Shown: piece after piece, positions 34,329 through 53,825 of the stretch
Layout of the letters: every line of letters starts with the position of its first letter
How positions within the stretch are numbered: position 1 is the first letter of the stretch
Origin: Patescibacteria group bacterium
GTDB lineage: Bacteria; Patescibacteriota; Microgenomatia; Levybacterales; UBA12049
Direction of reading: 5' to 3'
DNA length: 64,000 nt
Assembly: GCA_038062115.1 (NCBI GenBank)
Contig: JBBTXS010000009.1
Span: 27,681-91,680 of the forward strand
Notes under the pieces: generated by a model
Databases searched by the model: none
What the model saw: only the letters and a program-made list of their open reading frames with translations
Told to the model about the DNA's origin: nothing
Made by a program: the position numbers and the translations under genes

Positions 34329-34545
34329 TTATATAGCCGTCTCCGAAAGATGAATAATCGCAAAAAAAATTTTTCTCAAAGGTTTAGATTGCTCGTTGTT
34401 TAGCCAAAAGAATTTTATTTTTGGATTATCTTTACACAAATATTCAAACAATTGTAAATCATCATCAACATATATCAAGAAGAGCTACTTTGTATTTTTC
34501 TTTAAGAAGTTTTTTGCCAGATGATAACCCAAAAACCCAGCGCCT
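34329..34545 (-). pseudogene. Remnant of an NAD-dependent epimerase/dehydratase N-terminus
   Basis: The minus strand reads GAGFLGYHLAKNFL (Rossmann GxGFxGxHL), then after a 1-nt frameshift EKYKVALLDIYVDDD...AIIHLSE, then a stop. No start codon and no C-terminal two-thirds. Confidence 0.5.
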
Positions 34546-35792
34546 ATTTTACAATCTCGCCTATTTGAAAGGCAATATTTCCATTTGGATAATGAATTGT
34601 TTTCTTTATTAAAAAATCTTTAGCAAAATTGGATTTTGAAAGATAGTCAGGACTTAATGAAAATAATTGCCGTTTCGATGGATCGTAAATATGAGGATCT
34701 CGGAAAAAGTCTCCCATTTTACATTTTGATCGGCAAGTATTTTCTGGATCATAGAAAGAAAGAAATATATGTCCAGCATTAAATTCTCCACTCATGTATA
34801 GCTCGTCATAATTATCCTTTACCGAACGAAAGTATTTCATTATATCCCTTGGCCCATACTGCCAACCCCAAAAATCAGACGAATATAAAGGATATTGAAT
34901 AAAATAAAATTTTGTAAAGAAAACTAAATTTAATAGAATTACAATTATGATTATAGAAACAGGAATATAGCTATGAATAAACTTTTTTGCATGCAATATT
35001 GTTGTCGCAATACCTAAGCTAATAAGTATTACATACAAAGGCGCACCAATAACAGAACGACTGGTAAAGGGAGCCTCTGCAGTAACTGCTCCTGCTATCG
35101 GATAGATAAGAAGCCAATACATAAGTAGCTGTGTGGTTTTATTGTTTTTCATTGTGAGAAAAGTATGTATCAATCCAATTAGTATGAATGGGAGTGTTGT
35201 TATCAATAAAGGCGTTAAACCCCCTACAAAATGTCGTGTAATAAAAGTGGGCTCGCCTGAAATGAAATAAGAAGGAGACAACTGGACAATAAAGTTTTGA
35301 ATAATGCGCAAGACACTTTGTGGAAAAAAAAGTTACATAAATAGTAAACTCAAATCCTGTTCTGTTATAGTGAATTAGCCACGGCATTGTGGCTGTTATA
35401 AAAGCAGTCAGCAGTCCAAAAGAGCGACTTTTCTTAGAACTAATTTCCTTTCCTATCAAATACATTGCAATTATTGTTATTAGACCATAAAGCACTGAAG
35501 GTAATCTTGTACTTAGTTCGTTTAACCCAAGTAAACCAATAAAGGGGATTGTTGAATATATGGCTAATGGAGGACGATAATCTTCAAAAGATTGAAAGAA
35601 TATGGGATAAGAAACGCCATACTCATTTGTTCCTTTTGTAAGTATTGTATAAGCGTTATAACCAATAGATGCTTCATCTGCAAAAAATCCAGTAGGAGTT
35701 TCAGAAAGTTTGTAAATTCTTATGAAAAAACCAAGAAAAACAATAAGTATTAATAATACATAATGTAGTTTAACGTTATTTATCATTCTCAA
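34544..35792 (-). pseudogene. GT-C (PMT_2/ArnT-like) membrane glycosyltransferase split by a frameshift in a T8 tract
   Basis: The N-part (35139-35792, GFFADEASIGYNAY motif) and C-part (34544-35311) are in frames differing by 1. Removing one base of the A8 run at 35324-35331 joins them (...YVTFFPQSVLRIIQNF...). Confidence 0.7.
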
Positions 35793-35874
35793 AAATCATC
35801 ACCTTCGGGTGGTCGTAGATGGTAAACCCACCATAAAGATTTTATAGGGGTTGGGGTTGAAAAACAATAACAAC
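35786..35874 (-). repeat. R1: stub of a GT-C gene 3' end (cassette-boundary repeat)
   Basis: The minus strand encodes ...FFNPNPYKIF..(fs)..IYDHPKVMIFENDK*, with the stop overlapping the downstream GT-C start (ATG 35786). Shares 13 identical nt (ctacgaccacccg) with 38138-38150. Confidence 0.7.
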
Positions 35875-35904
35875 CGCCTTCGGTGTAATACACTACAAAA
35901 AAAT

Positions 35905-35933
35905 TTGACAAATAGAGCATCCTTTGGTACATT
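35905..35933 (+). promoter_or_regulatory. Promoter-like TTGACA-17-TACATT
   Basis: TTGACA at 35905-35910, a 17-nt spacer, TACATT at 35928-35933. Precedes a GC-rich structured segment. Confidence 0.4.
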
Positions 35934-35939
35934 ATAGAT

Positions 35940-36042
35940 GCTCGAAAACGTCCGTATGGTCGCTGCCCCGCTAAAGCGGGGATAGGGCCAGCCAGCCGCT
36001 TAACAATGCTGGGTTGCCAGGTCTAGACAACCTGGTTTTTTT
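35940..36042 (+). ncRNA. Candidate small RNA (about 100 nt) with its own promoter and intrinsic terminator
   Basis: GC-rich island in AT-rich DNA. Hairpins CCCCGC-TAAA-GCGGGG and CCAGC..GCTGG. Terminator CCAGGT-ctagaca-ACCTGG + T7 (36017-36042). No credible ORF. Confidence 0.35.
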
Positions 36043-36616
36043 ATACCTCAATAACAATACTTGTCTTCTTAAAGCGTTTTATAAACTGCAAGGCATACTT
36101 TTCGTTCTCATAAGCTTCCCGCAAAAAACCAGCCATCGCATCAGATAATCTCAGAAAAATGTTCTGTTCGTCTTTCATGCCTCTAATTTTTCTATATCTT
36201 ATCTTGAGCTTCTTCAATTCTCCTCTTACTACGTCTCTTTCTTTATCATTTAGACCGTCAATAATAACGGTAACGGTGTAATTTGTAGTTTCCTTTGCAA
36301 GAACGGCTTTCGCAATTGTAAAAGAGGTTAATTTGGAATATTCCTTTGAAGCCTGGTATGTTGCATAAAAAATACTCTTTCTAAGCTCTTTGACTTGAAC
36401 TAGCTCATCAAGGTACTTTTGTTTAACCTTTTTGGTTGTCTTTTTCCACTTTGACTGCCTTTTACCAGTTATCTCTTCAATCCCTTCAAGTTTTTTCTCA
36501 AGTACTTCTAGTTCACTAATATCTTTAAGGACAACTGCAACCAAAAATAGCTCTCCTTTCGTATCCTGTCCTGTCTCATCGACATAGCAATAAAGTTTAG
36601 TAAGCATCACTGTCAT
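36041..36616 (-). CDS. DUF3800-like protein
   Basis: N-terminal YVDETG and C-terminal LRLSDAMAGFL resemble the DUF3800 signature (DExG ... QxADxxA). 191 aa. Confidence 0.5.
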   Translation of the reverse strand: MTVMLTKLYCYVDETGQDTKGELFLVAVVLKDISELEVLEKKLEGIEEITGKRQSKWKKTTKKVKQKYLDELVQVKELRKSIFYATYQASKEYSKLTSFTIAKAVLAKETTNYTVTVIIDGLNDKERDVVRGELKKLKIRYRKIRGMKDEQNIFLRLSDAMAGFLREAYENEKYALQFIKRFKKTSIVIEV

Positions 36617-36652
36617 TGTAGCAAATATTAGTAATTTTCAGGATAAGCCATT

Positions 36653-36740
36653 TTCTCAAATATCATCACCTTCGGATGATCGTAGACGTAAGCTCGCTAT
36701 AAAGATTTTATAGGGATTGGGGTTGGAAGACAATAGAGAG
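36653..36740 (-). repeat. R2: stub of a GT-C gene 3' end (cassette-boundary repeat)
   Basis: About 80% identical to R1 by eye. The minus strand encodes ..SSNPNPYKIF..(fs)..VYDHPKVMIFEKMAYPENY*. Confidence 0.7.
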
Positions 36741-36805
36741 CGTTGAGGACTTGTGCAGTGGCGAATAACCATTAAAGTTTGGTATAATAAAAAGGGTAAT
36801 ACATT

Positions 36806-37096
36806 ATGACGCAGGCAAATTTAGGTCGAATTAAACGGAAAGTTTTGCCAATTCTTAAAGAGGCAGGTGTTACACGATTCTCTCTCTTTGGTTCCTATGT
36901 GCGTGGAGAGCAAAAAAAAGATAGTGATATAGACATACTTATTGATTTTCCGAGGGGAAAGGGACTTTTTGAGTTTGCTGGATTGCAATTTCAATTGGAA
37001 GATGCGCTGAAAAAAAAGGTTGATTTAGTGGAATATGAATCCTTAAATCCTCTTTTGAAAGAACGTATTTTGGCAGAGCAGGTGCAAATTTTATGA
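36806..37096 (+). CDS. Nucleotidyltransferase-domain antitoxin (MntA-type)
   Basis: GSYVRGEQKKDSDIDILIDF minimal NTase motif. 96 aa. Confidence 0.8.
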   Translation: MTQANLGRIKRKVLPILKEAGVTRFSLFGSYVRGEQKKDSDIDILIDFPRGKGLFEFAGLQFQLEDALKKKVDLVEYESLNPLLKERILAEQVQIL

Positions 37097-37103
37097 ATAT
37101 TTT

Positions 37104-37222
37104 ATGAATAAAGACACAGTTGTTTTTCTTATTTTGGTATAAACTTCAAAACTGTTTGGGATACAGTAATAGTAAGTATTCCTGAGTTTAAGAAGCAAAT
37201 TGAAAAACTCCTCGAAGAATAA
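37104..37222 (+). pseudogene. HepT (DUF86/HEPN) toxin remnant with a large internal deletion
   Basis: MNKDTVVFLILV* (N-terminal codons), then in another frame ...FKTVWDTVIVSIPEFKKQIEKLLEE*, typical of the DUF86 C-terminus. The Rx4-6H core is missing. Confidence 0.5.
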
Positions 37223-37241
37223 AAGTTATAAAAGCGAAATT

Positions 37242-37305
37242 TTCTCAAAAATCATCACCTTCTACTAAAGATTTTATATGGATTGGGGTGGGAAGGCAAT
37301 GGCCA
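37242..37305 (-). repeat. R3: shortened copy of the cassette-boundary repeat
   Basis: Same ends as R1/R2 (TTCTCAAAAATCATCACCTT ... AAAGATTTTATATGGATTGGGGTGG) but lacks the roughly 22-bp YDHP-encoding segment. Confidence 0.65.
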
Positions 37306-37388
37306 AGATGTGATTATAGCTTACAAGGATTTTTAGAGATAACAAGGACTTGACAAGGAGACATTGTTTTCCTTATAATTCATTGTAT

Positions 37389-37643
37389 ATGGCACAGATG
37401 GCGACTATTACTTCGAAAATGCAGCTTACTTTACCCGTATCAATTGCTCGGAAAATTGGCATAAAAAGCGGCCAGAAAGTAACAGTTTCTGAAAAAGACG
37501 GTGATATTATTATTACCCCAGCCGAGCGGCTCGTTAAAGAGCTCGCTGGTTCGCTAAAATACCTTAAAAAGAAAGATAATAAAACACTCGATGAAATAAT
37601 TAAAGAAGCAAAATACACTTATTTTAAATCACATAAAAGATGA
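37389..37643 (+). CDS. AbrB/SpoVT-family antitoxin
   Basis: SKMQLTLPVSIARKIGIKSGQKVTVSEKDGDIIITP swapped-hairpin motif. The stop overlaps the PIN gene start. Confidence 0.75.
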   Translation: MAQMATITSKMQLTLPVSIARKIGIKSGQKVTVSEKDGDIIITPAERLVKELAGSLKYLKKKDNKTLDEIIKEAKYTYFKSHKR

Positions 37644-38038
37644 TGTTTGTAGACACGAATTATTTTCTTCGATACTTAATTGCAGACGATAAAAAGCAAT
37701 ACGAGATTGCAAATCAGTTATTCCTCGATGGCTCTAGAGGAAAAATAAAACTAATCAGTTCAACTATTGTATTTTTTGAAACCTACTGGGTATTAAAATC
37801 ATATTACTCTACTCCAAAAGAAAGGCTGCTTATAACCCTAAAGAGAATATTGCAAATGCATTTTATCAATTTTGGCGAAAGGGACATATTGGAGGAAACT
37901 ATTAGGTTATTTGGGAAGACTACTTTTGATCTTGAGGATTGTTATAACGTTTTCTACGCTAAAACTCATAAAATTAAGAACTTTAAAACGTTCGATGAGA
38001 AATTGATTAAACAGTGGAACAAAGAAACTAAAAATTAA
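37640..38038 (+). CDS. PIN-domain toxin (VapC-like)
   Basis: MMFVDTNYFLRYL... with acidic residues spaced as in PIN domains (D5, E46, D98-like). 132 aa. Confidence 0.75.
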   Translation: MMFVDTNYFLRYLIADDKKQYEIANQLFLDGSRGKIKLISSTIVFFETYWVLKSYYSTPKERLLITLKRILQMHFINFGERDILEETIRLFGKTTFDLEDCYNVFYAKTHKIKNFKTFDEKLIKQWNKETKN

Positions 38039-38047
38039 AACAGAGTT

Positions 38048-38068
38048 TTCCCCAAATATCATCACCTT
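38048..38068 (-). repeat. R4: partial cassette-boundary repeat abutting the stop of the intact GT-C gene
   Basis: TTCCCCAAATATCATCACCTT matches the R1-R3 left end. Together with the last roughly 25 nt of the gene it resembles the R3 form. Confidence 0.55.
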
Positions 38069-39677
38069 ATAGTAGAAGATTCCTTATGTAAGCGTCCGAG
38101 TATTTGCGAACGTTTTTAAAGATTAAAACTGGCGGGTGGTCGTAGCTTTGGAAACTTTCGTCTGCAAAATCATCGCTAACATAGAAAGGATAATTTGTGA
38201 ATTTCTTTACCAATTTAAAGCCTAATTTTTCTTTAAATAATAATTGGTAGAAGTTTGAAGTATATGGATACTGTTTAGGATTTTTTAAAATTGAATAATA
38301 AACTCTGCGGCTCGAAATTACAAAATAATCACTCTGCGACAAAGTTGTTGAAAGGCTTGAGATTTTTTCCAAAGAATCTGGTTCGTACACGGGCAACTGG
38401 ATCATCTGGTACTGTTTGCCTAAATTTGTTGAAAGCATAAGCGGAAGACTATCGTCCCAATGCTCGCCAGCAATAGTAGCTTGAGTAGAGACATTTCGAT
38501 AAATCCATGAAGATGCGGCTATTCTAGTGTGGGGTTTAATATAGATATTAAGATAAAGCATGCCGTTAACGACAATAAAAAATAAAAGGACTAATAAAGT
38601 GGGCTTTTTGAATCTAACTAAAGCTACAGAAGCCCAGAATGATAAAAAAGGAATTAGTAAAACATAGTATCTTGAAAATTTGGCGTACCAAGCTCCGGTC
38701 CACAAAAAGTAAAGAATTGGAAAAATTAGAATAAATAAATACATGTAGCTCTTTTTTTCTTTGAGTTTTTTAAAAATAAGCGCTAAGCCAACAAAAGATA
38801 AAGGCACAGAAATAAAACCAAAGGCGAATGGCAGAATTTTCATTAAAGGATAAAGATAGGGTTTTGTTTGTTCGTAAATTATGGTATAGACTGGTTTATT
38901 TCTCCCGTACACTACATTCTGTTCGTAATTCTGCCTTTCTTTAAAACGAGCAAAGTCTATAATTTGGTATGGGGCTAGAACAGCGCCGAAGATGGCAGAC
39001 GTAAATACAAAAAGTAATATAAAGAAAATTAGTTTTTTTAACTTCTTTTCTTTAAAGAAAAGAAAAACAAAAGATATCATGGGGACAATAAGGAAAGTTA
39101 GTCCAACAATTTTCGTTGCGTAGGACATGCCTATTAAAAGACCCAAAGGAACAAAAAGTAAATAATTTTTATTTTTTACTGCTTTGATGCTTAAAAAAGT
39201 AATTAAAGTTATAAAAAAAATTAGCATGCTTTCTGTTGTGTTAAAGTGAGCATGTTGAATACTGCCAGTAGAAAAAGCAAAAATAAGGGCTGCTATTATG
39301 CCAATCTTTTTATTAAATAGTTCTTTAGATACAAAAAAGATTAGAGGAATAGTTAAAACACTAAATACAGACGACACCAAACGGCTTACAAATAAAAAAC
39401 TTGGGTTTGGGAGAATAGCTGCATGTATTATCTTGTAAATAAATAGAGGAAACGAACCATAAGAGAATTCTTTTGAGTTTAGGGGTGAATCTTTAGACAA
39501 TAAAAGGCTGAATTCTTTTGGTATGTAAATATTTGAGCTGTTGACATATATCCTTTCGTCTGGATGTAAATAATGCCCCTCATCCCAATTTAGACCATAC
39601 AAACGCAAAATTGCGCCAAGTATAAGGATTACAAAAAGCAGTATTTTTTCTTTATTGAAAAAACTAAAACTTTTCAT
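38067..39677 (-). CDS. GT-C superfamily membrane glycosyltransferase-like protein (DUF2298/PMT-like)
   Basis: 536 aa, polytopic, first-loop LHPDERIY motif, C-terminus ...SYDHPPVLIFKNVRKYSDAYIRNLLL. Confidence 0.65.
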   Translation of the reverse strand: MKSFSFFNKEKILLFVILILGAILRLYGLNWDEGHYLHPDERIYVNSSNIYIPKEFSLLLSKDSPLNSKEFSYGSFPLFIYKIIHAAILPNPSFLFVSRLVSSVFSVLTIPLIFFVSKELFNKKIGIIAALIFAFSTGSIQHAHFNTTESMLIFFITLITFLSIKAVKNKNYLLFVPLGLLIGMSYATKIVGLTFLIVPMISFVFLFFKEKKLKKLIFFILLFVFTSAIFGAVLAPYQIIDFARFKERQNYEQNVVYGRNKPVYTIIYEQTKPYLYPLMKILPFAFGFISVPLSFVGLALIFKKLKEKKSYMYLFILIFPILYFLWTGAWYAKFSRYYVLLIPFLSFWASVALVRFKKPTLLVLLFFIVVNGMLYLNIYIKPHTRIAASSWIYRNVSTQATIAGEHWDDSLPLMLSTNLGKQYQMIQLPVYEPDSLEKISSLSTTLSQSDYFVISSRRVYYSILKNPKQYPYTSNFYQLLFKEKLGFKLVKKFTNYPFYVSDDFADESFQSYDHPPVLIFKNVRKYSDAYIRNLLL

Positions 39678-39726: not shown

Positions 39727-41427
39727 TTATCCACCTTCAAGTAGTTGCCTATACTGTTCAGGCAATAATTGCCGATTTTTTTTGAATACTCTAATTACCG
39801 GGTGGTCGAAAACGCTCCATGTTTCTTCAGCTTGTTCATCGGGAAATTCAATGTTTTGCCCAAGCAGTGATAGCCTGGGATACGAATGGACTTCTTTAAT
39901 CTGTTCAAAACCCATTCTTTCCTCAAAAAGCGCATTATAGAAATGCGCAGTTCTTGGATATAATCTTGGTAGTCTTTGATGGTTATAAAAGACTCGACGA
40001 CTCTGTATAAGAAAATAATCTGCTCTTTCTAATCCGGCTGCAATTTCTGCTCGTGTATTTTGGTTTTCTTCAAAATTGTAGAAGTTGAATCCTAAACGCT
40101 TAAAGTTTCCTGCCAGAGGAATATCGATCATATTTCCTCCCTCCACCAAAAAAGTAGATCCCGGCAAAGCAACGGATTCGATCCATTTGGAAGCTGTTAT
40201 ACGGATATCATCATTGGTATAGATTGAGAAAAAAGACATTGTCCAAAGCACTGTACCAAACATAAGAACTCCGCCTAAAAAATAATAAACGGATCGCTGC
40301 GTTTTCTTTGCGAACGTTTGCAAAGAAATGGCTGCAAATATGGCAAAGAAAGGAAAAGTTGGAGCAATAAATCTGGTCCACTTGGCAAAAAGCAAAGCGT
40401 TTGTTAAGAATAAAGACAGAAACGCGAGTATAAGCATAATCAGCTCTATTTTTGGTTTTCTAACAAAATTGATAGCAAGAAATATAATTCCTACGGTTGA
40501 AAACAAGAAAAGAAATGGTCCCAAAGCATAGAGTAAGATCTTTTCTGCTTGAAAAAGAATTGGCATAGTATCTATAAACTGCCTTGTGTAAAAAACAGGA
40601 ATTTTTCCAATAGCAAGTCCTCCTTCGTATTCGAAGTTGCCTCGGAAGTCGGAAAAATCAAGAAAAACATAAGGCGCGACAATGGCAAAAGTTGCAAGAA
40701 CAACGATTATATTTACAAGAGTCAATCCTGTAAATTTTAGCAGTGTTTTAAGAGCCTGCTTTATAAATAAAATCGGTGTTTTAAAAGACAGGTTTTTGGG
40801 ATACGATTTAATAATTATAGCTGCTATTAACGGTAGCAAAAATACAACAGAGCTTATTTTTACGCCCAAAGCAAAGCCTAAAGCAATAGAGGCAAGGATT
40901 AGATATAAAGCTTTATTATGCTTTAGAAATTTTAGTATCAAAAGCAAGGATCCAAATAAAAAGAAAGTTAATGTGGATTCGGGAGTGGCAAAGTGAGCCT
41001 GCTGAATAAGCCCGGGAGTTATGGCTACCAATAAAGCCGCAAAATAAGAAAAACGTCTTTCCATGAAAGACCGGCAGATTTTATAAACAATAATTATGGT
41101 TAATGTGGAAAATAACGCAGAATAAAACCGACCAATTAAAAACGAATTAAGAATTAAGAATTTAGAATTAAGAATGGAAGGAAATAATTTTAATAGTTCT
41201 TGGGTAAAGTAGATTAGGTAAATAGTTACTGTTCCATAAGAGAAAAAATGTGGATGCATTTGGGTTGGAAAAGATAGTTGATTTACAGAACCAGCAATAT
41301 GATACTCATCGGGATGGGTGAATAGACTATTACCCCAATCTAGCTTGTAAAAACGAAGAAAAGCACCAACTATAAGTATACAACTTATTAAGAAAAATAA
41401 TTTCTGTTGTTTGATAAACTGGATCAT
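39727..41427 (-). CDS. GT-C superfamily membrane glycosyltransferase-like protein (paralog)
   Basis: Polytopic, THPDEYHI motif, C-terminus ...SVFDHPVIRVFKK.... ATG 41427 overlaps the upstream stop (ATGA). Confidence 0.65.
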   Translation of the reverse strand: MIQFIKQQKLFFLISCILIVGAFLRFYKLDWGNSLFTHPDEYHIAGSVNQLSFPTQMHPHFFSYGTVTIYLIYFTQELLKLFPSILNSKFLILNSFLIGRFYSALFSTLTIIIVYKICRSFMERRFSYFAALLVAITPGLIQQAHFATPESTLTFFLFGSLLLILKFLKHNKALYLILASIALGFALGVKISSVVFLLPLIAAIIIKSYPKNLSFKTPILFIKQALKTLLKFTGLTLVNIIVVLATFAIVAPYVFLDFSDFRGNFEYEGGLAIGKIPVFYTRQFIDTMPILFQAEKILLYALGPFLFLFSTVGIIFLAINFVRKPKIELIMLILAFLSLFLTNALLFAKWTRFIAPTFPFFAIFAAISLQTFAKKTQRSVYYFLGGVLMFGTVLWTMSFFSIYTNDDIRITASKWIESVALPGSTFLVEGGNMIDIPLAGNFKRLGFNFYNFEENQNTRAEIAAGLERADYFLIQSRRVFYNHQRLPRLYPRTAHFYNALFEERMGFEQIKEVHSYPRLSLLGQNIEFPDEQAEETWSVFDHPVIRVFKKNRQLLPEQYRQLLEGG

Positions 41428-42464
41428 AGAGAAGAAATGCCTCCTCGGGTTTTGATAAAAAGAAGGCATCCTATTGCAACTATGGAGAGGCCAAATATGC
41501 CAGCAATTAGAATCGATGAATTACCAAGTGGCGCTTCGGGAGCAATAGTTGGTAATACTATAACTGGCGTTGGGGAAGGAATTGGAGTTGGGGTTGGCAT
41601 AGAAGTTGGGGTTGGAGTTGGAGTTGGAGAGGGGGTAGGGCTCGCAGAAGGCGTTGCAATGCTTAGAACAATAGAGGAAAAACCTAAAAGAACAGCAGAC
41701 TTAGAGGAAGTCGGCGCAGTTTTTTGCGTAAAATCATAATCGTTGGATAAAGTTATTACTGGAATTGTATTTATTTGTGCTCCTTGGAGCAAAACACTGG
41801 ATTTAAGAACTCCATTTGTAATTATCATTTTAATAACATTGTTTTTGTCAAGAGTTACAGGGGAAGATAGATCTTGGGACAACAAAGAGTTTAATGCCAA
41901 TAAGTAAGTGCCATCGGTTTTAGATAGAGATGAGATCTCTTGTGCTTTAGACACCTTAGCGTATACTAGAGCTTCTTTTGGACTTTCTCCAGTAGGAAGA
42001 ACGATTTTACCTGTGATTGGAGTTTGTGTAATTTGTGTAATTTGAGGTTTTGGTGCAGTTGTTGTTTCGTAAGGCATATTGTTATTTAAAAACGTATTTT
42101 GTCCTGAAGTAATTGTGAAAAAATATTGAGTAGCTGGTTTAAGATAATGCAACGTAAAACTGTGGACTTTATGAGGTCTAATTCCTTCCCCTTGGTCTCT
42201 ATCGTCTAATGCAGTTTGTCCTAAATTTTTATCTGTACCAAAATTCACTGAGCCTATATTTTCTACTTCTGTCGTATAAGACACAGTAAAACTGGTGTCT
42301 AAAATATTGGTAATTTTTACATTTTGTGGAGTTTGTGTGATATCGGCACGACTCACAAAAACAGTACTACTTTTAACAAGTATAGATGTCATTACAATGC
42401 TAGTTCCTATTAAGAGTATACTTAAAAGAGTTGGTATTCGTTTATCCCAAAATGTGTTTCTCAT
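41424..42464 (-). CDS. Surface protein with N-terminal TM, FN3-like domain, Pro/Thr linker and C-terminal TM anchor
   Basis: PQNVKITNILDTSFTVSYTT...YFFTITSG is FN3-like. PTPSPTPTPTPT linker. Ends in a hydrophobic helix plus KTRGG. Confidence 0.55.
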   Translation of the reverse strand: MRNTFWDKRIPTLLSILLIGTSIVMTSILVKSSTVFVSRADITQTPQNVKITNILDTSFTVSYTTEVENIGSVNFGTDKNLGQTALDDRDQGEGIRPHKVHSFTLHYLKPATQYFFTITSGQNTFLNNNMPYETTTAPKPQITQITQTPITGKIVLPTGESPKEALVYAKVSKAQEISSLSKTDGTYLLALNSLLSQDLSSPVTLDKNNVIKMIITNGVLKSSVLLQGAQINTIPVITLSNDYDFTQKTAPTSSKSAVLLGFSSIVLSIATPSASPTPSPTPTPTPTSMPTPTPIPSPTPVIVLPTIAPEAPLGNSSILIAGIFGLSIVAIGCLLFIKTRGGISSL

Positions 42465-52766: not shown

Positions 52767-53825
52767 CTATTTCAATACACGATATCGTGTACTTCTTCCA
52801 AGACCCAGTCGTTGGATTTTCTTAAGTCTTAAAAGCTTATTGAGTACTTGGTTTACCGTTGGACGAGCAACATGTGCGTTTTTGGCAATTTCGGCTGGAG
52901 CAGATTCTTCTGCTTTTTGCAAATATTCCCATACTGCAAGCTGTTTTTGGGAGAGAAGCTTTTCAACACTTTCTTCGGAAAGAAAATCAACTGCTATTTG
53001 TGACTGTTTAAGTATTACATTTAAGAAAAAGCTCAGCCAAGGAATAATACCTTCTCTATCAGTGCCGAATGTATTTTGACTTTTTCGCAAAGCCATATAG
53101 TATGCGGGCTTATTATCTTCGATAAGCTTTTCGTGAGAAACATAAGGTGTGTAGAAATACTCCTCCTTGAGGAGTAAAAGATTGGTAAGAATGCGCGAAA
53201 GACGCCCATTTCCATCTTGAAAAGGGTGGATCTTGAGAAATTCCACAAGAAAATTGCCTATTATAAGAAGTGGATGATATTTGCGTTTTTGAAGAGCAGC
53301 TTGGGTCCATTCAACAAGTTCTTGCATCTCTTTTGGAGTAAGATATGCTGGCGTGGTATCAAACAATACTCCTACAGATTGACCTGCATCGTTTACCATA
53401 AACACTTTGTTCTCTTGTTTTTTATACTCGCCTCTGTGTCTTACATCTTTTAAGACATACTTTAAGAGCTCTTTGTGCAAATGCTTTATCGTATTTTCTG
53501 AAAATTTAATCTGTTGCCATGAATCAAAAGCGTTTTGCAAAAGCTCATAATAACTTCTTACTTCCTGTTTATCGCGATCAGGAAATCTTTGAATTTGAAT
53601 TCCTCTCATGAGTTTTTCAATATCTTCATCAGAAAGCCTAGCCCCCTCAATACGAGTAGAGGCACCAGTTGAAGTAACCAAAACAGACCTTTTAAGCCTA
53701 CCAAGAACCTGCGGATTTAATTTTGCACCGCCTATCCATTGGCCTTTGAGTTGGTCAATTTGAGCGATGAGGGTCCAAATCTTTTGAGGAATATTTTGCA
53801 ATCGCTTATCAAATCGATGCTCCAT
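52767..53825 (-). CDS. Fic/DOC family protein with C-terminal winged-helix domain
   Basis: Fic motif HPFQDGNGRLSRIL and a C-terminal wHTH-like AEIAKNAHVARPTVNQVLNKLL. Confidence 0.85.
   Translation of the reverse strand: MEHRFDKRLQNIPQKIWTLIAQIDQLKGQWIGGAKLNPQVLGRLKRSVLVTSTGASTRIEGARLSDEDIEKLMRGIQIQRFPDRDKQEVRSYYELLQNAFDSWQQIKFSENTIKHLHKELLKYVLKDVRHRGEYKKQENKVFMVNDAGQSVGVLFDTTPAYLTPKEMQELVEWTQAALQKRKYHPLLIIGNFLVEFLKIHPFQDGNGRLSRILTNLLLLKEEYFYTPYVSHEKLIEDNKPAYYMALRKSQNTFGTDREGIIPWLSFFLNVILKQSQIAVDFLSEESVEKLLSQKQLAVWEYLQKAEESAPAEIAKNAHVARPTVNQVLNKLLRLKKIQRLGLGRSTRYRVLK

What the first reader, a model, noticed from the sequence alone, without database searches (positions are those of the whole stretch)
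35786..38068. Integrase-less cassette array: four direct copies of a GT-C gene 3' stub delimit three small TA/defence-type cassettes
R1 (35786-35874), R2 (36653-36740), R3 (37242-37305, lacking about 22 bp) and R4 (38048-38068) share one orientation and are about 80% identical by eye. Read on the minus strand, R1 and R2 encode ...NPNPYKIF...(I/V)YDHPKVMIFE.... This matches the C-terminus of the intact GT-C gene at 38067-39677 (...SYDHPPVLIFKN...), including a 13-nt identical run (ctacgaccacccg). R1 still carries a stop that overlaps the ATG of the next GT-C gene (35786), as expected if R1 is the original 3' end. R4 sits at the present 3' end of the intact gene. The three intervals hold a DUF3800-like gene plus a candidate sRNA, mntA plus a deleted hepT, and abrB/PIN. 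This is the pattern left by serial site-specific integration into the 3' end of a gene (attL-island-att-island-attR), as known for tRNA-targeting islands. Here, however, the units are only 0.5-0.9 kb and no recombinase is in the window. On the minus strand the repeat also reads as a TATAAA box plus AAGGTGA SD plus ATG, so it could double as a portable expression signal.
Basis: partly seen in the sequence, partly recalled or inferred. Interest (0 to 1): 0.8.

Follow-up and report, generated by a model that had tools for sequence, protein, structure and literature searches.

The report
Integrase-less gene cassette array in Patescibacteria
Three small toxin-antitoxin or defence-type gene cassettes sit one after another in a groundwater Patescibacteria genome, each bounded by a copy of the last ~45 bases of a glycosyltransferase gene plus an outward promoter; the same cassettes and repeats turn up in other metagenomes in other orders and next to empty sites, so this looks like an undescribed family of recombinase-less mobile cassettes.

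Summary
The repeats are real: R1-R3 are 83-89% identical, and a 16-nt core occurs four times in one orientation. The cargo calls hold for DUF3800 plus an sRNA, MntA, and AbrB/PIN.

The stubs do derive from a GT-C (PMT_2) gene 3' end, but not from the neighbouring 38067 gene, whose own C-terminus is ancestral. They copy the end of a paralogous "type C" family (...ADESFTVYDHPKVMIFEK*) that has no gene in the window.

Other metagenomes show:
- type C genes with empty sites;
- type C genes followed by one or more cassettes, each ending in the same stub;
- arrays holding the same AbrB/PIN and DUF3800+sRNA cassettes in a different order, next to other cargo (HigBA-like, AbiE, an AAA_14/DUF4143 ATPase, HEPN).

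The "NPNPYKIF" part is not coding. It is a conserved outward promoter-like element (TTGnnn-17/18-TAAAAT) shared by cassettes with unrelated cargo.

No recombinase was found in the window or in any array locus, and the repeats are not attC-like.

Best reading: small cis-mobilizable cassettes that recombine Campbell-style at the conserved GT-C 3' end, using a recombinase supplied in trans or host homologous recombination. The window holds an orphaned array joined non-canonically (R4) to a paralogous gene. This is a new variant of a known kind.

The parts
35786..35874 (-). R1, the distal repeat. Stub 35786-35826 reads on the minus strand as TTTACC ATC TAC GAC CAC CCG AAG GTG ATG ATT TTT GAG AA = FTIYDHPKVMIFE. 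Its frame ends in a stop just after the ATG (35786) of the next PMT_2 gene. Outward promoter-like element: -10 TAAAAT at 35839-35844, -35 TTGTTT at 35862-35867.
36652..36740 (-). R2. Stub 36652-36692 (VYDHPKVMIFEKMAYPENY*); the tail EK(I/M)AYPENY* travels with the DUF3800 cassette in L023 and L026. Outward promoter-like element TTGTCT-17-TAAAAT at 36733-36705.
37241..37305 (-). R3. Only the right half of the stub is kept (AAGGTGATGATTTTTGAGAAA, 37241-37261). Promoter-like element TTGCCT-17-TAAAAT at 37299-37271. The TTTACC...CCG half of the stub is missing.
38046..38068 (-). R4. Right half of the stub only (AAGGTGATGATATTTGGGGAAAA), fused to the TAA stop of the type B GT-C gene. The break is at the same position, |AAGGTG, as in R3. 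What follows is homologous to the PIN-side cassette junction of L026, L031, L056 and L057.
35875..36651 (.). Cassette 1. An sRNA of about 105 nt on the + strand (35938-36042; promoter 35905-35933; terminator 36016-36036) and a DUF3800 gene on the - strand (36041-36616). The same unit is found in L023 (complete), L026 (DUF3800 truncated) and L025 (partial).
36741..37240 (+). Cassette 2. mntA-type nucleotidyltransferase at 36806-37096 (Pfam NTP_transf_2; PADLOC PDC-S09).
37306..38045 (+). Cassette 3. A TTGACA-18-TATAAT promoter at 37350-37379, abrB/MazE-fold antitoxin at 37389-37643 and PIN toxin at 37640-38038. Homologous cassettes lie beside GT-C 3' ends in L026, L031-43, L056, L057 and L061.
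38067..39677 (-). Type B GT-C (PMT_2) gene, intact, with its own ancestral C-terminus (...QSYDHPPVLIFKNVRKYSDAYIRNLLL*). It is not the source of the stubs.
39727..41469 (-). Type A GT-C (PMT_2) gene (...SVFDHPVIRVFKK...). In L036-43 its ortholog is itself a cassette target.
34544..35786 (-). Type D PMT_2 gene downstream of the array, split into two overlapping ORFs (an apparent frameshift). It is the ortholog of L008 5657-7147 and of L031 2309-3871, the latter likewise sitting directly downstream of a stub.

Best explanation
The region is an array of three small (0.6-0.9 kb) recombinase-less mobile cassettes. They belong to a family found in Microgenomates-type Patescibacteria.

Each cassette consists of three parts:
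1. A copy of the last roughly 45-100 nt of a conserved GT-C/PMT_2 glycosyltransferase gene (type C, ...ADESFTVYDHPKVMIFEK*). This serves as the attachment or homology site.
2. Self-contained toxin-antitoxin or defence-type cargo. Two of the window's three cassettes and the sRNA have their own promoter-like signals; the cargo lies on either strand.
3. An outward-facing sigma-70-like promoter (TTGnnn-17/18-TAAAAT) next to the stub. This could keep the downstream glycosylation gene transcribed (inferred).

How it works:
- A circular cassette recombines Campbell-style with the 3' end of the resident gene.
- The gene then continues into the cassette's copy of its tail, for example ...EKILF* for the PIN cassette and ...EKIAYPENY* for the DUF3800 cassette.
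- The original 3' end is left behind as a stub beyond the cassette.
- Repeated events stack cassettes, and recombination between stubs reshuffles or deletes them.

The enzyme is not on the cassettes. I think a site-specific recombinase supplied in trans is somewhat more likely than host RecA. It would act at the shared core GTCTAYGACCACCC-GAAGGTGAT, which contains a CACC-CGAA-GGTG palindrome.

The window's array is orphaned. No type C gene is present, and the proximal junction (R4) fuses half a site to the stop codon of a paralogous type B gene. A secondary deletion or transfer event probably caused this.

Shown: the anatomy, the homology, the empty and occupied sites, and the different cassette order elsewhere.
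Inferred: circular intermediates, the identity of the recombinase, promoter activity, and whether the cassettes are still mobile.
For: Repeats and their origin:
- The repeats are non-random.
- The stub peptide matches the invariant C-terminus of a large GT-C family. That family gave 1300 hits, and the listed ones end ADESFTVYDHPK(V/I)MIF.K plus a short tail.
- It does not match the adjacent gene's conserved tail.

Other loci:
- A metagenome scan for the coding pattern found full-length type C genes and also short orphan stubs in L022, L023, L025 and L026.
- L022: a type C gene end, then an AAA_14/DUF4143 cassette, a stub, an AbiEii cassette and another stub.
- L026: four stubs bounding PIN/AbrB, HTH+Gp49 and sRNA+DUF3800' cassettes, with a HEPN fragment upstream. 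The order differs from the window's.
- L023: an AbiE-like cassette, a stub, a complete DUF3800+sRNA cassette, a stub, then the next gene.
- L031, L056 and L061: a type C gene, the PIN/AbrB cassette, then a stub.
- Empty sites occur in L021, L044 and L046-55.

Linkage of arms:
- The left arm of the stub travels with the cassette. It reads VPINNQ(T/I)ADESFT in both L056 and L061 and differs from the host gene.
- The right arm is the host's own tail.
- Each cassette type carries its own tail after the core.

Type A site:
- The same PIN cassette sits at a type A gene in L036.
- There, homology between the stub and the target starts exactly at GTCTTTGACCACCC, the only stretch shared by type A and type C.
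- This argues for a short defined crossover region.

Other observations:
- R3 and R4 both break at CCG|AAGGTG, the centre of the CACC-CGAA-GGTG palindrome.
- The promoter-like element is conserved in more than 12 stubs with unrelated cargo.
- Substitutions among 17 stubs fall 21/10/52 on codon positions 1/2/3. The stubs were therefore recently coding, or have exchanged with coding ends.
- PIN identity (75% to the L036 group, 59% to the L031 group) runs against type A identity (61% and 64%).
- The cargo is of TA or defence-candidate type.
Against: - No recombinase was found in the 64-kb window or in about 100 kb of array-bearing loci. The probes there were sequences recalled from memory, so sensitivity is limited.
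- No circular form or strain-level presence/absence polymorphism could be tested. All contigs of the window's population, and of the L036 population, are identical across the array.
- The attL at the type A site (L036) carries a complete type A tail, not the type C tail that a simple crossover at the shared core would give.
- In L061 the attL keeps the host-like RVIIFKK. The crossover position is therefore not fixed, or gene conversion has acted. This fits homologous recombination as well as it fits a site-specific enzyme.
- The left boundaries of the stubs form a nested series (-33, -21, -9, 0, +15 nt) that could simply reflect decay by deletion.
- The window itself lacks the cognate target gene, so its array may be a dead relic.
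Confidence: 0.68

Rival explanations
1. The anatomy is the same, but the cassettes move only by host homologous recombination. RecA-mediated single crossovers would act between the 45-100-nt stub on an excised or taken-up circle and the resident gene end. Flanking-homology replacement after natural transformation would spread cassettes between relatives. No dedicated site-specific recombinase would exist.
For: - The repeated segment is always homologous to the local target over its whole length: type A stubs at a type A gene (93% identical over 84 nt) and type C stubs at type C genes.
- The apparent crossover position varies between loci (L056 against L061).
- No recombinase was seen anywhere near the arrays.
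- The locus lies beside PilN/PilO genes, which are type IV pilus assembly components. Such pili are used for DNA uptake in naturally competent bacteria (own knowledge).
Against: - The PIN cassette moved between type C and type A targets, which share only about 14 nt. The type A stub keeps what looks like a type C-derived left arm up to exactly that core (left-arm match about 9 of 12 by eye, suggestive only). That is too short for efficient RecA recombination (own knowledge of minimal homology lengths).
- R3 and R4 break at the same nucleotide.
- The 30-nt core is nearly invariant among non-coding stubs from different metagenomes, while functional genes vary there at synonymous sites.
Confidence: 0.3
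2. The array is a static relic. It was assembled once in an ancestor or donor and inherited or transferred as a block. The repeats now matter only as promoters or ribosome-binding signals, if at all, and the cassettes are no longer individually mobile.
For: - The window has no cognate target gene, and R3 and R4 are half sites.
- One cargo gene is deleted or degraded in L026 (DUF3800 truncated). hepT may be deleted in the window (unverified).
- All contigs of this population show the same arrangement.
- G+C of the array (0.353) equals that of the window (0.359).
Against: - The same cassette types occur in other orders, with other neighbours and beside different downstream genes.
- Empty sites are common.
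- So the family as a whole has moved as single cassettes, even if this copy is now inert.
Confidence: 0.15
3. The stubs are deletion remnants of a tandem array of full-length GT-C paralogs, into which TA genes were inserted independently.
For: Several GT-C paralogs do stand in tandem at this locus: types A, B and D here, and A-C-PMT_2-D in L044.
Against: - All stubs are the same terminal roughly 45 nt. They are 83-89% identical to each other, whereas the intact paralogs share only about 30% protein identity.
- No relative shows full-length genes at the repeat positions.
- The same stub plus promoter unit bounds unrelated cargo in other genomes.
Confidence: 0.03
4. A degenerate integron, that is a cluster of attC sites lacking an integron integrase (CALIN).
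For: An array of 0.6-0.9 kb cassettes separated by similar repeats in one orientation, with TA cargo typical of chromosomal integrons (typical cargo from own knowledge).
Against: - R1-R3 do not fold as single-stranded hairpins better than shuffled sequence (z from -1.9 to +0.1).
- No conserved RYYYAAC...GTTRRRY boxes are present (reading).
- Two of the three cassettes, and the sRNA, have promoter-like signals of their own, and the genes lie on both strands.
- No IntI-like gene is present.
- The repeat is demonstrably a gene 3' end.
Confidence: 0.02

Closest known systems
Tandem accretion of integrative elements at a gene 3' end, including cis-mobilizable elements (CIMEs) that keep attL and attR but have lost the integrase (ICESt1/ICESt3 family at fda; reviewed in PMC5704250)
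   Same: - Direct repeats that copy the 3' end of a protein-coding target gene flank each unit.
- The units stack in tandem.
- They lack their own recombinase and would depend on one supplied in trans.
- The most distal repeat is the original gene end.
   Different: - The units here are 0.6-1.4 kb and carry single cargo modules. They are not decayed multi-kilobase ICEs or IMEs.
- No integrase-bearing parent element has been found.
- Cassettes with unrelated cargo share a common promoter-plus-stub backbone.
- The hosts are Patescibacteria, and the target is a GT-C glycosyltransferase gene.
Tycheposon arrays in Prochlorococcus genomic islands (bioRxiv 10.1101/2020.12.28.424599)
   Same: - The host genome is streamlined.
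- Successive integrations at one site leave elements separated only by partial copies of the target gene.
- Degenerate remnants accumulate.
   Different: - Tycheposons carry tyrosine recombinases and target tRNA genes.
- Here no recombinase is present, the target is a protein-coding 3' end, and the units are much smaller.
Integron gene cassettes and CALINs
   Same: - Cassette size.
- One repeat per cassette, all in one orientation.
- TA-type cargo.
- The recombinase is not on the cassette.
   Different: - There is no attC hairpin, no IntI and no attI.
- Two of the three cassettes and the sRNA carry promoter-like signals of their own, plus an outward one.
- The repeat is coding-derived.
Xer-dependent modules (IMEX elements; pdif modules of Acinetobacter plasmids). 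Comparison from my own knowledge.
   Same: Small modules, often TA, without a recombinase of their own, bounded by short recombination sites and thought to be moved by a host enzyme.
   Different: - pdif sites are 28-bp dif mimics in alternating orientation.
- Here the sites are direct repeats, are derived from a gene end, and show no resemblance to dif.

Membership tests
Tandem site-specific integrative elements / CIME-type accretion at a gene 3' end | Each unit is flanked by direct repeats that copy the 3' end of the target gene. | tested here: met
   Stubs read FT(V/I)YDHPKVMIFE and match the type C GT-C C-terminus. The 16-nt core occurs four times in one orientation.
Tandem site-specific integrative elements / CIME-type accretion at a gene 3' end | The target gene stays intact, with its 3' end supplied by the element. 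| tested here: inconclusive
   Met in related loci L022, L031, L056 and L061, where the gene reads through into the cassette tail ...EKILF*. Not met in the window: no type C gene is present, and R4 is a half site fused to a type B gene.
Tandem site-specific integrative elements / CIME-type accretion at a gene 3' end | Empty target sites exist in related genomes. | tested here: met
   L021, L044/45 and L046-55 have a single site and no stub downstream.
Tandem site-specific integrative elements / CIME-type accretion at a gene 3' end | A cognate integrase, on the element or elsewhere in the genome, catalyses excision and integration. | tested here: not met
   No tyrosine or serine recombinase in the window or in the array loci. 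The rest of the genome could not be searched.
Tandem site-specific integrative elements / CIME-type accretion at a gene 3' end | Circular excised forms and strain-level polymorphism. | not testable with these tools
   This needs read mapping of the Hainich H51 runs. The assembled contigs of this population are identical across the array.
Integron / CALIN | attC sites: imperfect palindromes that fold as single strands, with R''/L''/L'/R' boxes. | tested here: not met
   Folding z-scores range from -1.9 to +0.1 for R1-R3 on both strands. No conserved GTTRRRY/RYYYAAC boxes.
Integron / CALIN | An IntI integrase with attI and Pc next to the array (not required for a CALIN). | tested here: not met
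Integron / CALIN | Mostly promoterless cassettes in one orientation. | tested here: not met
   Cassette 3 and the sRNA have strong promoter-like signals of their own, and the genes lie on both strands.
Xer-dependent IMEX / pdif modules | Bounding sites are dif-like (two 11-bp Xer arms and a 6-bp spacer), usually in alternating orientation. | tested here: inconclusive
   The repeats are direct and derived from a gene end. By eye they do not resemble the dif consensus I recall. The dif site of this lineage is unknown, and no formal test was made.
VapBC-type TA (AbrB/MazE-fold antitoxin + PIN toxin) | Adjacent small antitoxin and PIN-domain toxin genes that overlap and share a promoter. | tested here: met
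   PF04014 (1.1e-08) and PF01850 (2.2e-10), a 4-nt overlap, and a TTGACA-18-TATAAT promoter.
MNT/HEPN (MntA-HepT) TA | A nucleotidyltransferase antitoxin followed by a HEPN toxin. | tested here: inconclusive
   MntA is met (PF01909, 1.1e-17; PADLOC PDC-S09). HepT is not detectable: only about 125 nt follow the gene, and the fragment gave no meaningful Pfam hit.
DUF3800-IX RNA motif (Rfam RF02968) | A covariance-model score at or above the gathering threshold (36.8 bits). | tested here: not met
   The score is 16.8 bits at 35940-35988. There were no hits at E<=1 in L023, L025 or L026 when searched whole. Supporting context: the match lies beside a DUF3800 gene, the CCGUAUGG loop and the CGAA/UAGG flanks agree with the consensus, and one pair is compensatory across four loci.

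The most novel reading that the evidence does not exclude
Patescibacteria of the Microgenomates type may have an integron-like gene-capture platform of independent origin. A chromosomally encoded or otherwise trans-acting recombinase, not yet identified, would recognise the conserved coding sequence at the end of GT-C glycosyltransferase genes (core GTCTAYGACCACCC-GAAGGTGAT). It would insert, excise and shuffle individual 0.6-1.4-kb defence or TA cassettes. Each cassette brings a replacement gene tail and an outward promoter, so the glycosylation operon is not disturbed.
Probability: 0.3. Interest if true: 0.8.

Novelty: new variant of a known kind. Interest (0 to 1): 0.62.

Why it matters
Patescibacteria have tiny genomes and few recognisable mobile elements or defence systems, and how they exchange accessory genes is poorly understood.

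A family of recombinase-less mini-cassettes would be a concrete route for turnover of defence and TA genes in this radiation. These cassettes target a highly conserved gene end, stack in arrays and carry their own read-out promoter.

The finding also gives a defined DNA site (about 30 nt) and a set of empty and occupied loci. With these, one can search for the responsible recombinase and test cassette mobility directly.

There is a practical consequence too. These arrays probably break metagenome assemblies at glycosylation loci: most homologous cassettes found here sit on contigs of 1-8 kb.

Tried and rejected
- Exact repeat pattern in 185,579 species genomes (TATAAAATCTTTA-N4-34-AAGGTGATGAT): three hits, all in other lineages. 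The one inspected, L011, lies inside a Fur-type gene. The window's own species is evidently not among the representatives.
- Viral contigs scanned with two stub patterns: nothing.
- Plasmid and phage collections searched with the whole array in blastn distant mode: no match.
- Rfam at gathering thresholds on the window: nothing. No tRNA or tmRNA either.
- attC-like folding of the repeats: rejected.
- The idea that R1 is the end of the GT87-like gene that precedes the type D gene in L008: rejected. That protein ends ...KEKTINA*.
- The idea that the stubs come from the 38067 gene: rejected.
- Recombinase search with tyrosine and serine recombinase sequences recalled from memory, plus Pfam on 26 window ORFs: nothing.
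- A more distant PIN homolog (55% identity, L058) lies in an unrelated context without stubs. The association with GT-C ends therefore holds only for the closer clade.
- hepT remnant: not verifiable by Pfam.

Full report
**Source and observation.**
The window comes from a Patescibacteria MAG from Hainich groundwater well H51. Its GT-C protein is annotated [quoted passage not shown] and lies on contigs of up to 158 kb.

The repeats are real:
- The 16-nt core CAAAWATCATCACCTT occurs exactly at 35790, 36657, 37246 and 38053, all on the + strand. Even allowing 2 mismatches, shuffles give a mean of 0.23 matches.
- A second motif, AAAGATTTTATANGGNTTGGGGT, occurs three times, against 0 expected.
- R1-R2, R1-R3 and R2-R3 are 83%, 86% and 89% identical. 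R4 matches only the first 20 nt.

Pfam confirms the cargo:
- DUF3800 at 36041-36616 on the - strand.
- An MntA-type nucleotidyltransferase at 36806-37096.
- An AbrB/MazE-fold antitoxin and a PIN toxin at 37389-38038.
- Three PMT_2 (GT-C) genes around them.

The candidate sRNA has a TTGACA-17-TACATT promoter and a terminator. No tRNA, tmRNA or Rfam family at gathering score lies in the window.

**What the repeats are.**
On the minus strand, R1 and R2 read (I/V)YDHPKVMIFE. [YFW]DHP occurs only four times in all six frames of the window: in R1, in R2 and at the C-termini of the two intact GT-C genes. Homology to a GT-C C-terminus is therefore secure.

The donor is not the adjacent 38067 gene.
- More than 60 orthologs of that gene (50-80% identity) all end ...FQSYDHPPV.IFKN followed by a tail of about 17 residues, as the window's gene does.
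- Its own motif lies 45 nt upstream of R4.

I scanned metagenome contigs for DNA encoding YDHPKVMIF(E/D). It returned two kinds of hit:
- Full-length PMT_2 genes ending ...ADESFTVYDHPKVMIFEK.. (L014, L021).
- Short orphan stubs in L022, L023, L025 and L026.

I call this paralog family type C.
- It is large: 1300 hits at E<=1e-60, named by their sources as Levybacteria, Portnoybacteria and others.
- Its C-terminus is almost invariant.
- By BLASTP the window holds type A (39727-41469), type B (38067-39677) and a frameshifted type D (34544-35786), but no type C gene.

**Comparative anatomy.**

| Locus | Layout along the GT-C strand |
|---|---|
| L022 | type C gene end, AAA_14/DUF4143 ATPase cassette, stub, AbiEii (+AbiEi-like) cassette, stub |
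| L026 | four stubs bounding a HEPN fragment, sRNA + truncated DUF3800, HTH + Gp49 (HigBA-like) and AbrB/PIN; then an epimerase gene |
| L023 | AbiE-like cassette, stub, complete DUF3800 + sRNA cassette, stub, start of the next gene |
| L031-35, L056, L061 | type C gene, AbrB/PIN cassette, stub |
| L057 | stub, AbrB/PIN cassette, stub, type D gene |
| L036-43 | the same AbrB/PIN cassette behind a type A gene, followed by an 84-nt stub of the type A 3' end that overlaps the start of the next gene |

- The L026 order is not the order in the window.
- Empty sites, meaning one site and no stub downstream, are seen in L021, L044/45 (one protein on 24 contigs) and L046-55 from Hainich H52.
- Relatives carrying the window's type B gene have no cassettes after it.
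None of these loci has full-length paralogs at the repeat positions.

**Structure of a cassette.**
- Comparing the same cassette in different places shows that the sequence after the core travels with the cassette. The PIN cassette carries ...(E/K)K(I/T)LF* overlapping the PIN stop. The DUF3800 cassette carries ...EK(I/M)AYPENY*.
- The left arm of the stub beyond a cassette also travels with that cassette. It reads VPINNQ(T/I)ADESFT in both L056 and L061, unlike the host genes there. The remainder of that stub is the host's original tail.
- This is the layout expected from Campbell-type recombination between a circular cassette carrying one copy of the gene end and the resident gene.
- Directly next to the stub lies a conserved element, (T)ATTG(T/C)T followed by 17-18 nt, TAAAAT and CTTTA. 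It is present in more than 12 stubs whose cassettes carry unrelated cargo.
- In the window this element is the "NPNPYKIF/TATAAA" part of R1-R3. The promoter scan picks it up in R2 and R3 as TTGTCT/TTGCCT-17-TAAAAT.
- It points out of the cassette, towards the stub and the downstream gene. I infer that it is an outward promoter that offsets the polar effect of insertion. This has not been tested.

**Recombination site and enzyme.**
- The non-coding stubs keep GTCTACGACCA(C/T)CCGAAGGTGATGAT(A/T)TTT almost unchanged across metagenomes. Functional type C genes vary there at synonymous positions.
- Substitutions among 17 stubs fall 21/10/52 on codon positions 1/2/3. The stubs were therefore coding recently, or keep exchanging with coding ends.
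- The type A stub in L036 starts its homology to the type A gene exactly at GTCTTTGACCACCC. That is the only stretch that types A and C share. It is preceded by a left arm that looks type C-derived (about 9 of 12 by eye, suggestive only).
- In the window, R3 and R4 both break at CCG|AAGGTG, the centre of a CACC-CGAA-GGTG palindrome.
- These points favour a defined crossover region and hence a site-specific enzyme.
- Against that, the attL in L036 carries a full type A tail, the attL in L061 keeps host-like RVIIFKK, and the left boundaries of the stubs form a nested series. These are as easily explained by homologous recombination, gene conversion and decay.
- No tyrosine or serine recombinase was detected among the window's ORFs. 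I used phmmer with probes recalled from memory and Pfam on 26 ORFs. None was found in about 100 kb of array-bearing loci either.
- The repeats do not fold like attC sites.
- No phage, plasmid or viral contig carries the site or the cassettes.

**The window's own array.**
The order along the GT-C strand is:
- type A
- type B
- R4 (half site)
- PIN/AbrB
- R3 (half site plus promoter)
- MntA
- R2
- DUF3800/sRNA
- R1
- type D

R1 keeps the frame's stop overlapping the type D start, as do the distal stubs of L031 and L036. It is the original distal end of a type C gene.

Types B and C both follow type A in different genomes, so they are positional alternatives.

The array therefore reached, or was left at, a type B gene through a secondary event. 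That event was either a deletion of a type C gene or acquisition of the array with its downstream flank from a type C genome. One end point lies in the centre of the site. This step is inference.

**Comparison with known systems.**
- The nearest described situations are tandem accretion at gene 3' ends with integrase-less cis-mobilizable elements (PMC5704250) and tycheposon arrays separated by partial tRNA copies (bioRxiv 10.1101/2020.12.28.424599).
- The present units differ in several ways. They are single-module mini-cassettes that share a promoter-plus-stub backbone. No parent element is known. The target is a GT-C glycosyltransferase gene, and the hosts are Patescibacteria.
- They work like integron cassettes but fail the defining attC and IntI tests.
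- A study of horizontal transfer in groundwater (aquifer) Patescibacteria does not mention cassettes, direct repeats or glycosyltransferase targets (PMC12455944). A search for Patescibacteria with integron and attC found nothing relevant.
- I rate this a new variant of a known kind, with moderate-to-high interest.

Noticed in passing
window 35938-36042 (+); also L023 205-312, L025 4436-4540, L026 13867-13970: The sRNA next to DUF3800 is almost invariant in four loci. It gives a sub-threshold match to Rfam DUF3800-IX (16.8 bits against 36.8). The CCGUAUGG loop and the CGAA/UAGG flanks agree with the consensus, and one stem pair is compensatory. It is probably a divergent member of the DUF3800-associated RNA motifs.
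   Followed up: partly
window 34544-35786 (-): The type D PMT_2 gene downstream of the array is split into two overlapping ORFs (215 and 255 aa) relative to its 496-aa ortholog in L008. This is a frameshift, and so either a pseudogene or an assembly error. The same split is called in contig L001.
   Followed up: partly
L022 1290-1360, L026 11990-12060 and 14370-14440 (minus strand): A palindromic insert of about 62 nt (CCCCGCACC...GGTGCGGGG; DNA folding z about -2.9) sits inside some stubs, between two copies of TTTACC, like a miniature inverted-repeat element with a 6-bp target duplication. Its right end (GGTGCGGGG) persists in the sRNA-side stubs, and a remnant (GGTGGG) in window R1.
   Followed up: partly
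L025 2120-2748 and L057 750-1300: Nearly identical RelB-like/YafQ-like TA pairs lie just downstream of the PMT_2 gene that follows the array (type D in L057) in two unrelated contigs. No stub-like repeat was seen there. This may be a second insertion hot spot at the end of that gene.
   Followed up: no
window about 46600-47341 (+) and 52767-53825 (-): Further TA or addiction-type genes occur elsewhere in the window. A MazE-fold/PIN_3 pair lies between murJ and lepA (called in L001), and there is a Fic/DOC-domain protein. Neither was checked for flanking repeats.
   Followed up: no
L015, L016, L020, L027, L028, L029 (marine metagenome contigs, G+C 0.43-0.46): The same YDHPKVMIFE motif lies in the middle of open reading frames of about 1500 aa. 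These align with the window's type A GT-C protein over their first roughly 600 residues (about 26% identity) and carry about 870 further residues after the motif.
   Followed up: no
L026 13969-14235: The DUF3800 gene of this cassette copy lacks its N-terminal roughly 100 codons. Cassette cargo therefore decays in place while the flanking stubs and the sRNA stay intact.
   Followed up: partly
L006 2505-3002: An IS200/IS605-type Y1 transposase gene lies near the glycosylation locus of the closest relative (type B protein 80% identical). That relative has no cassettes after its type B gene.
   Followed up: no
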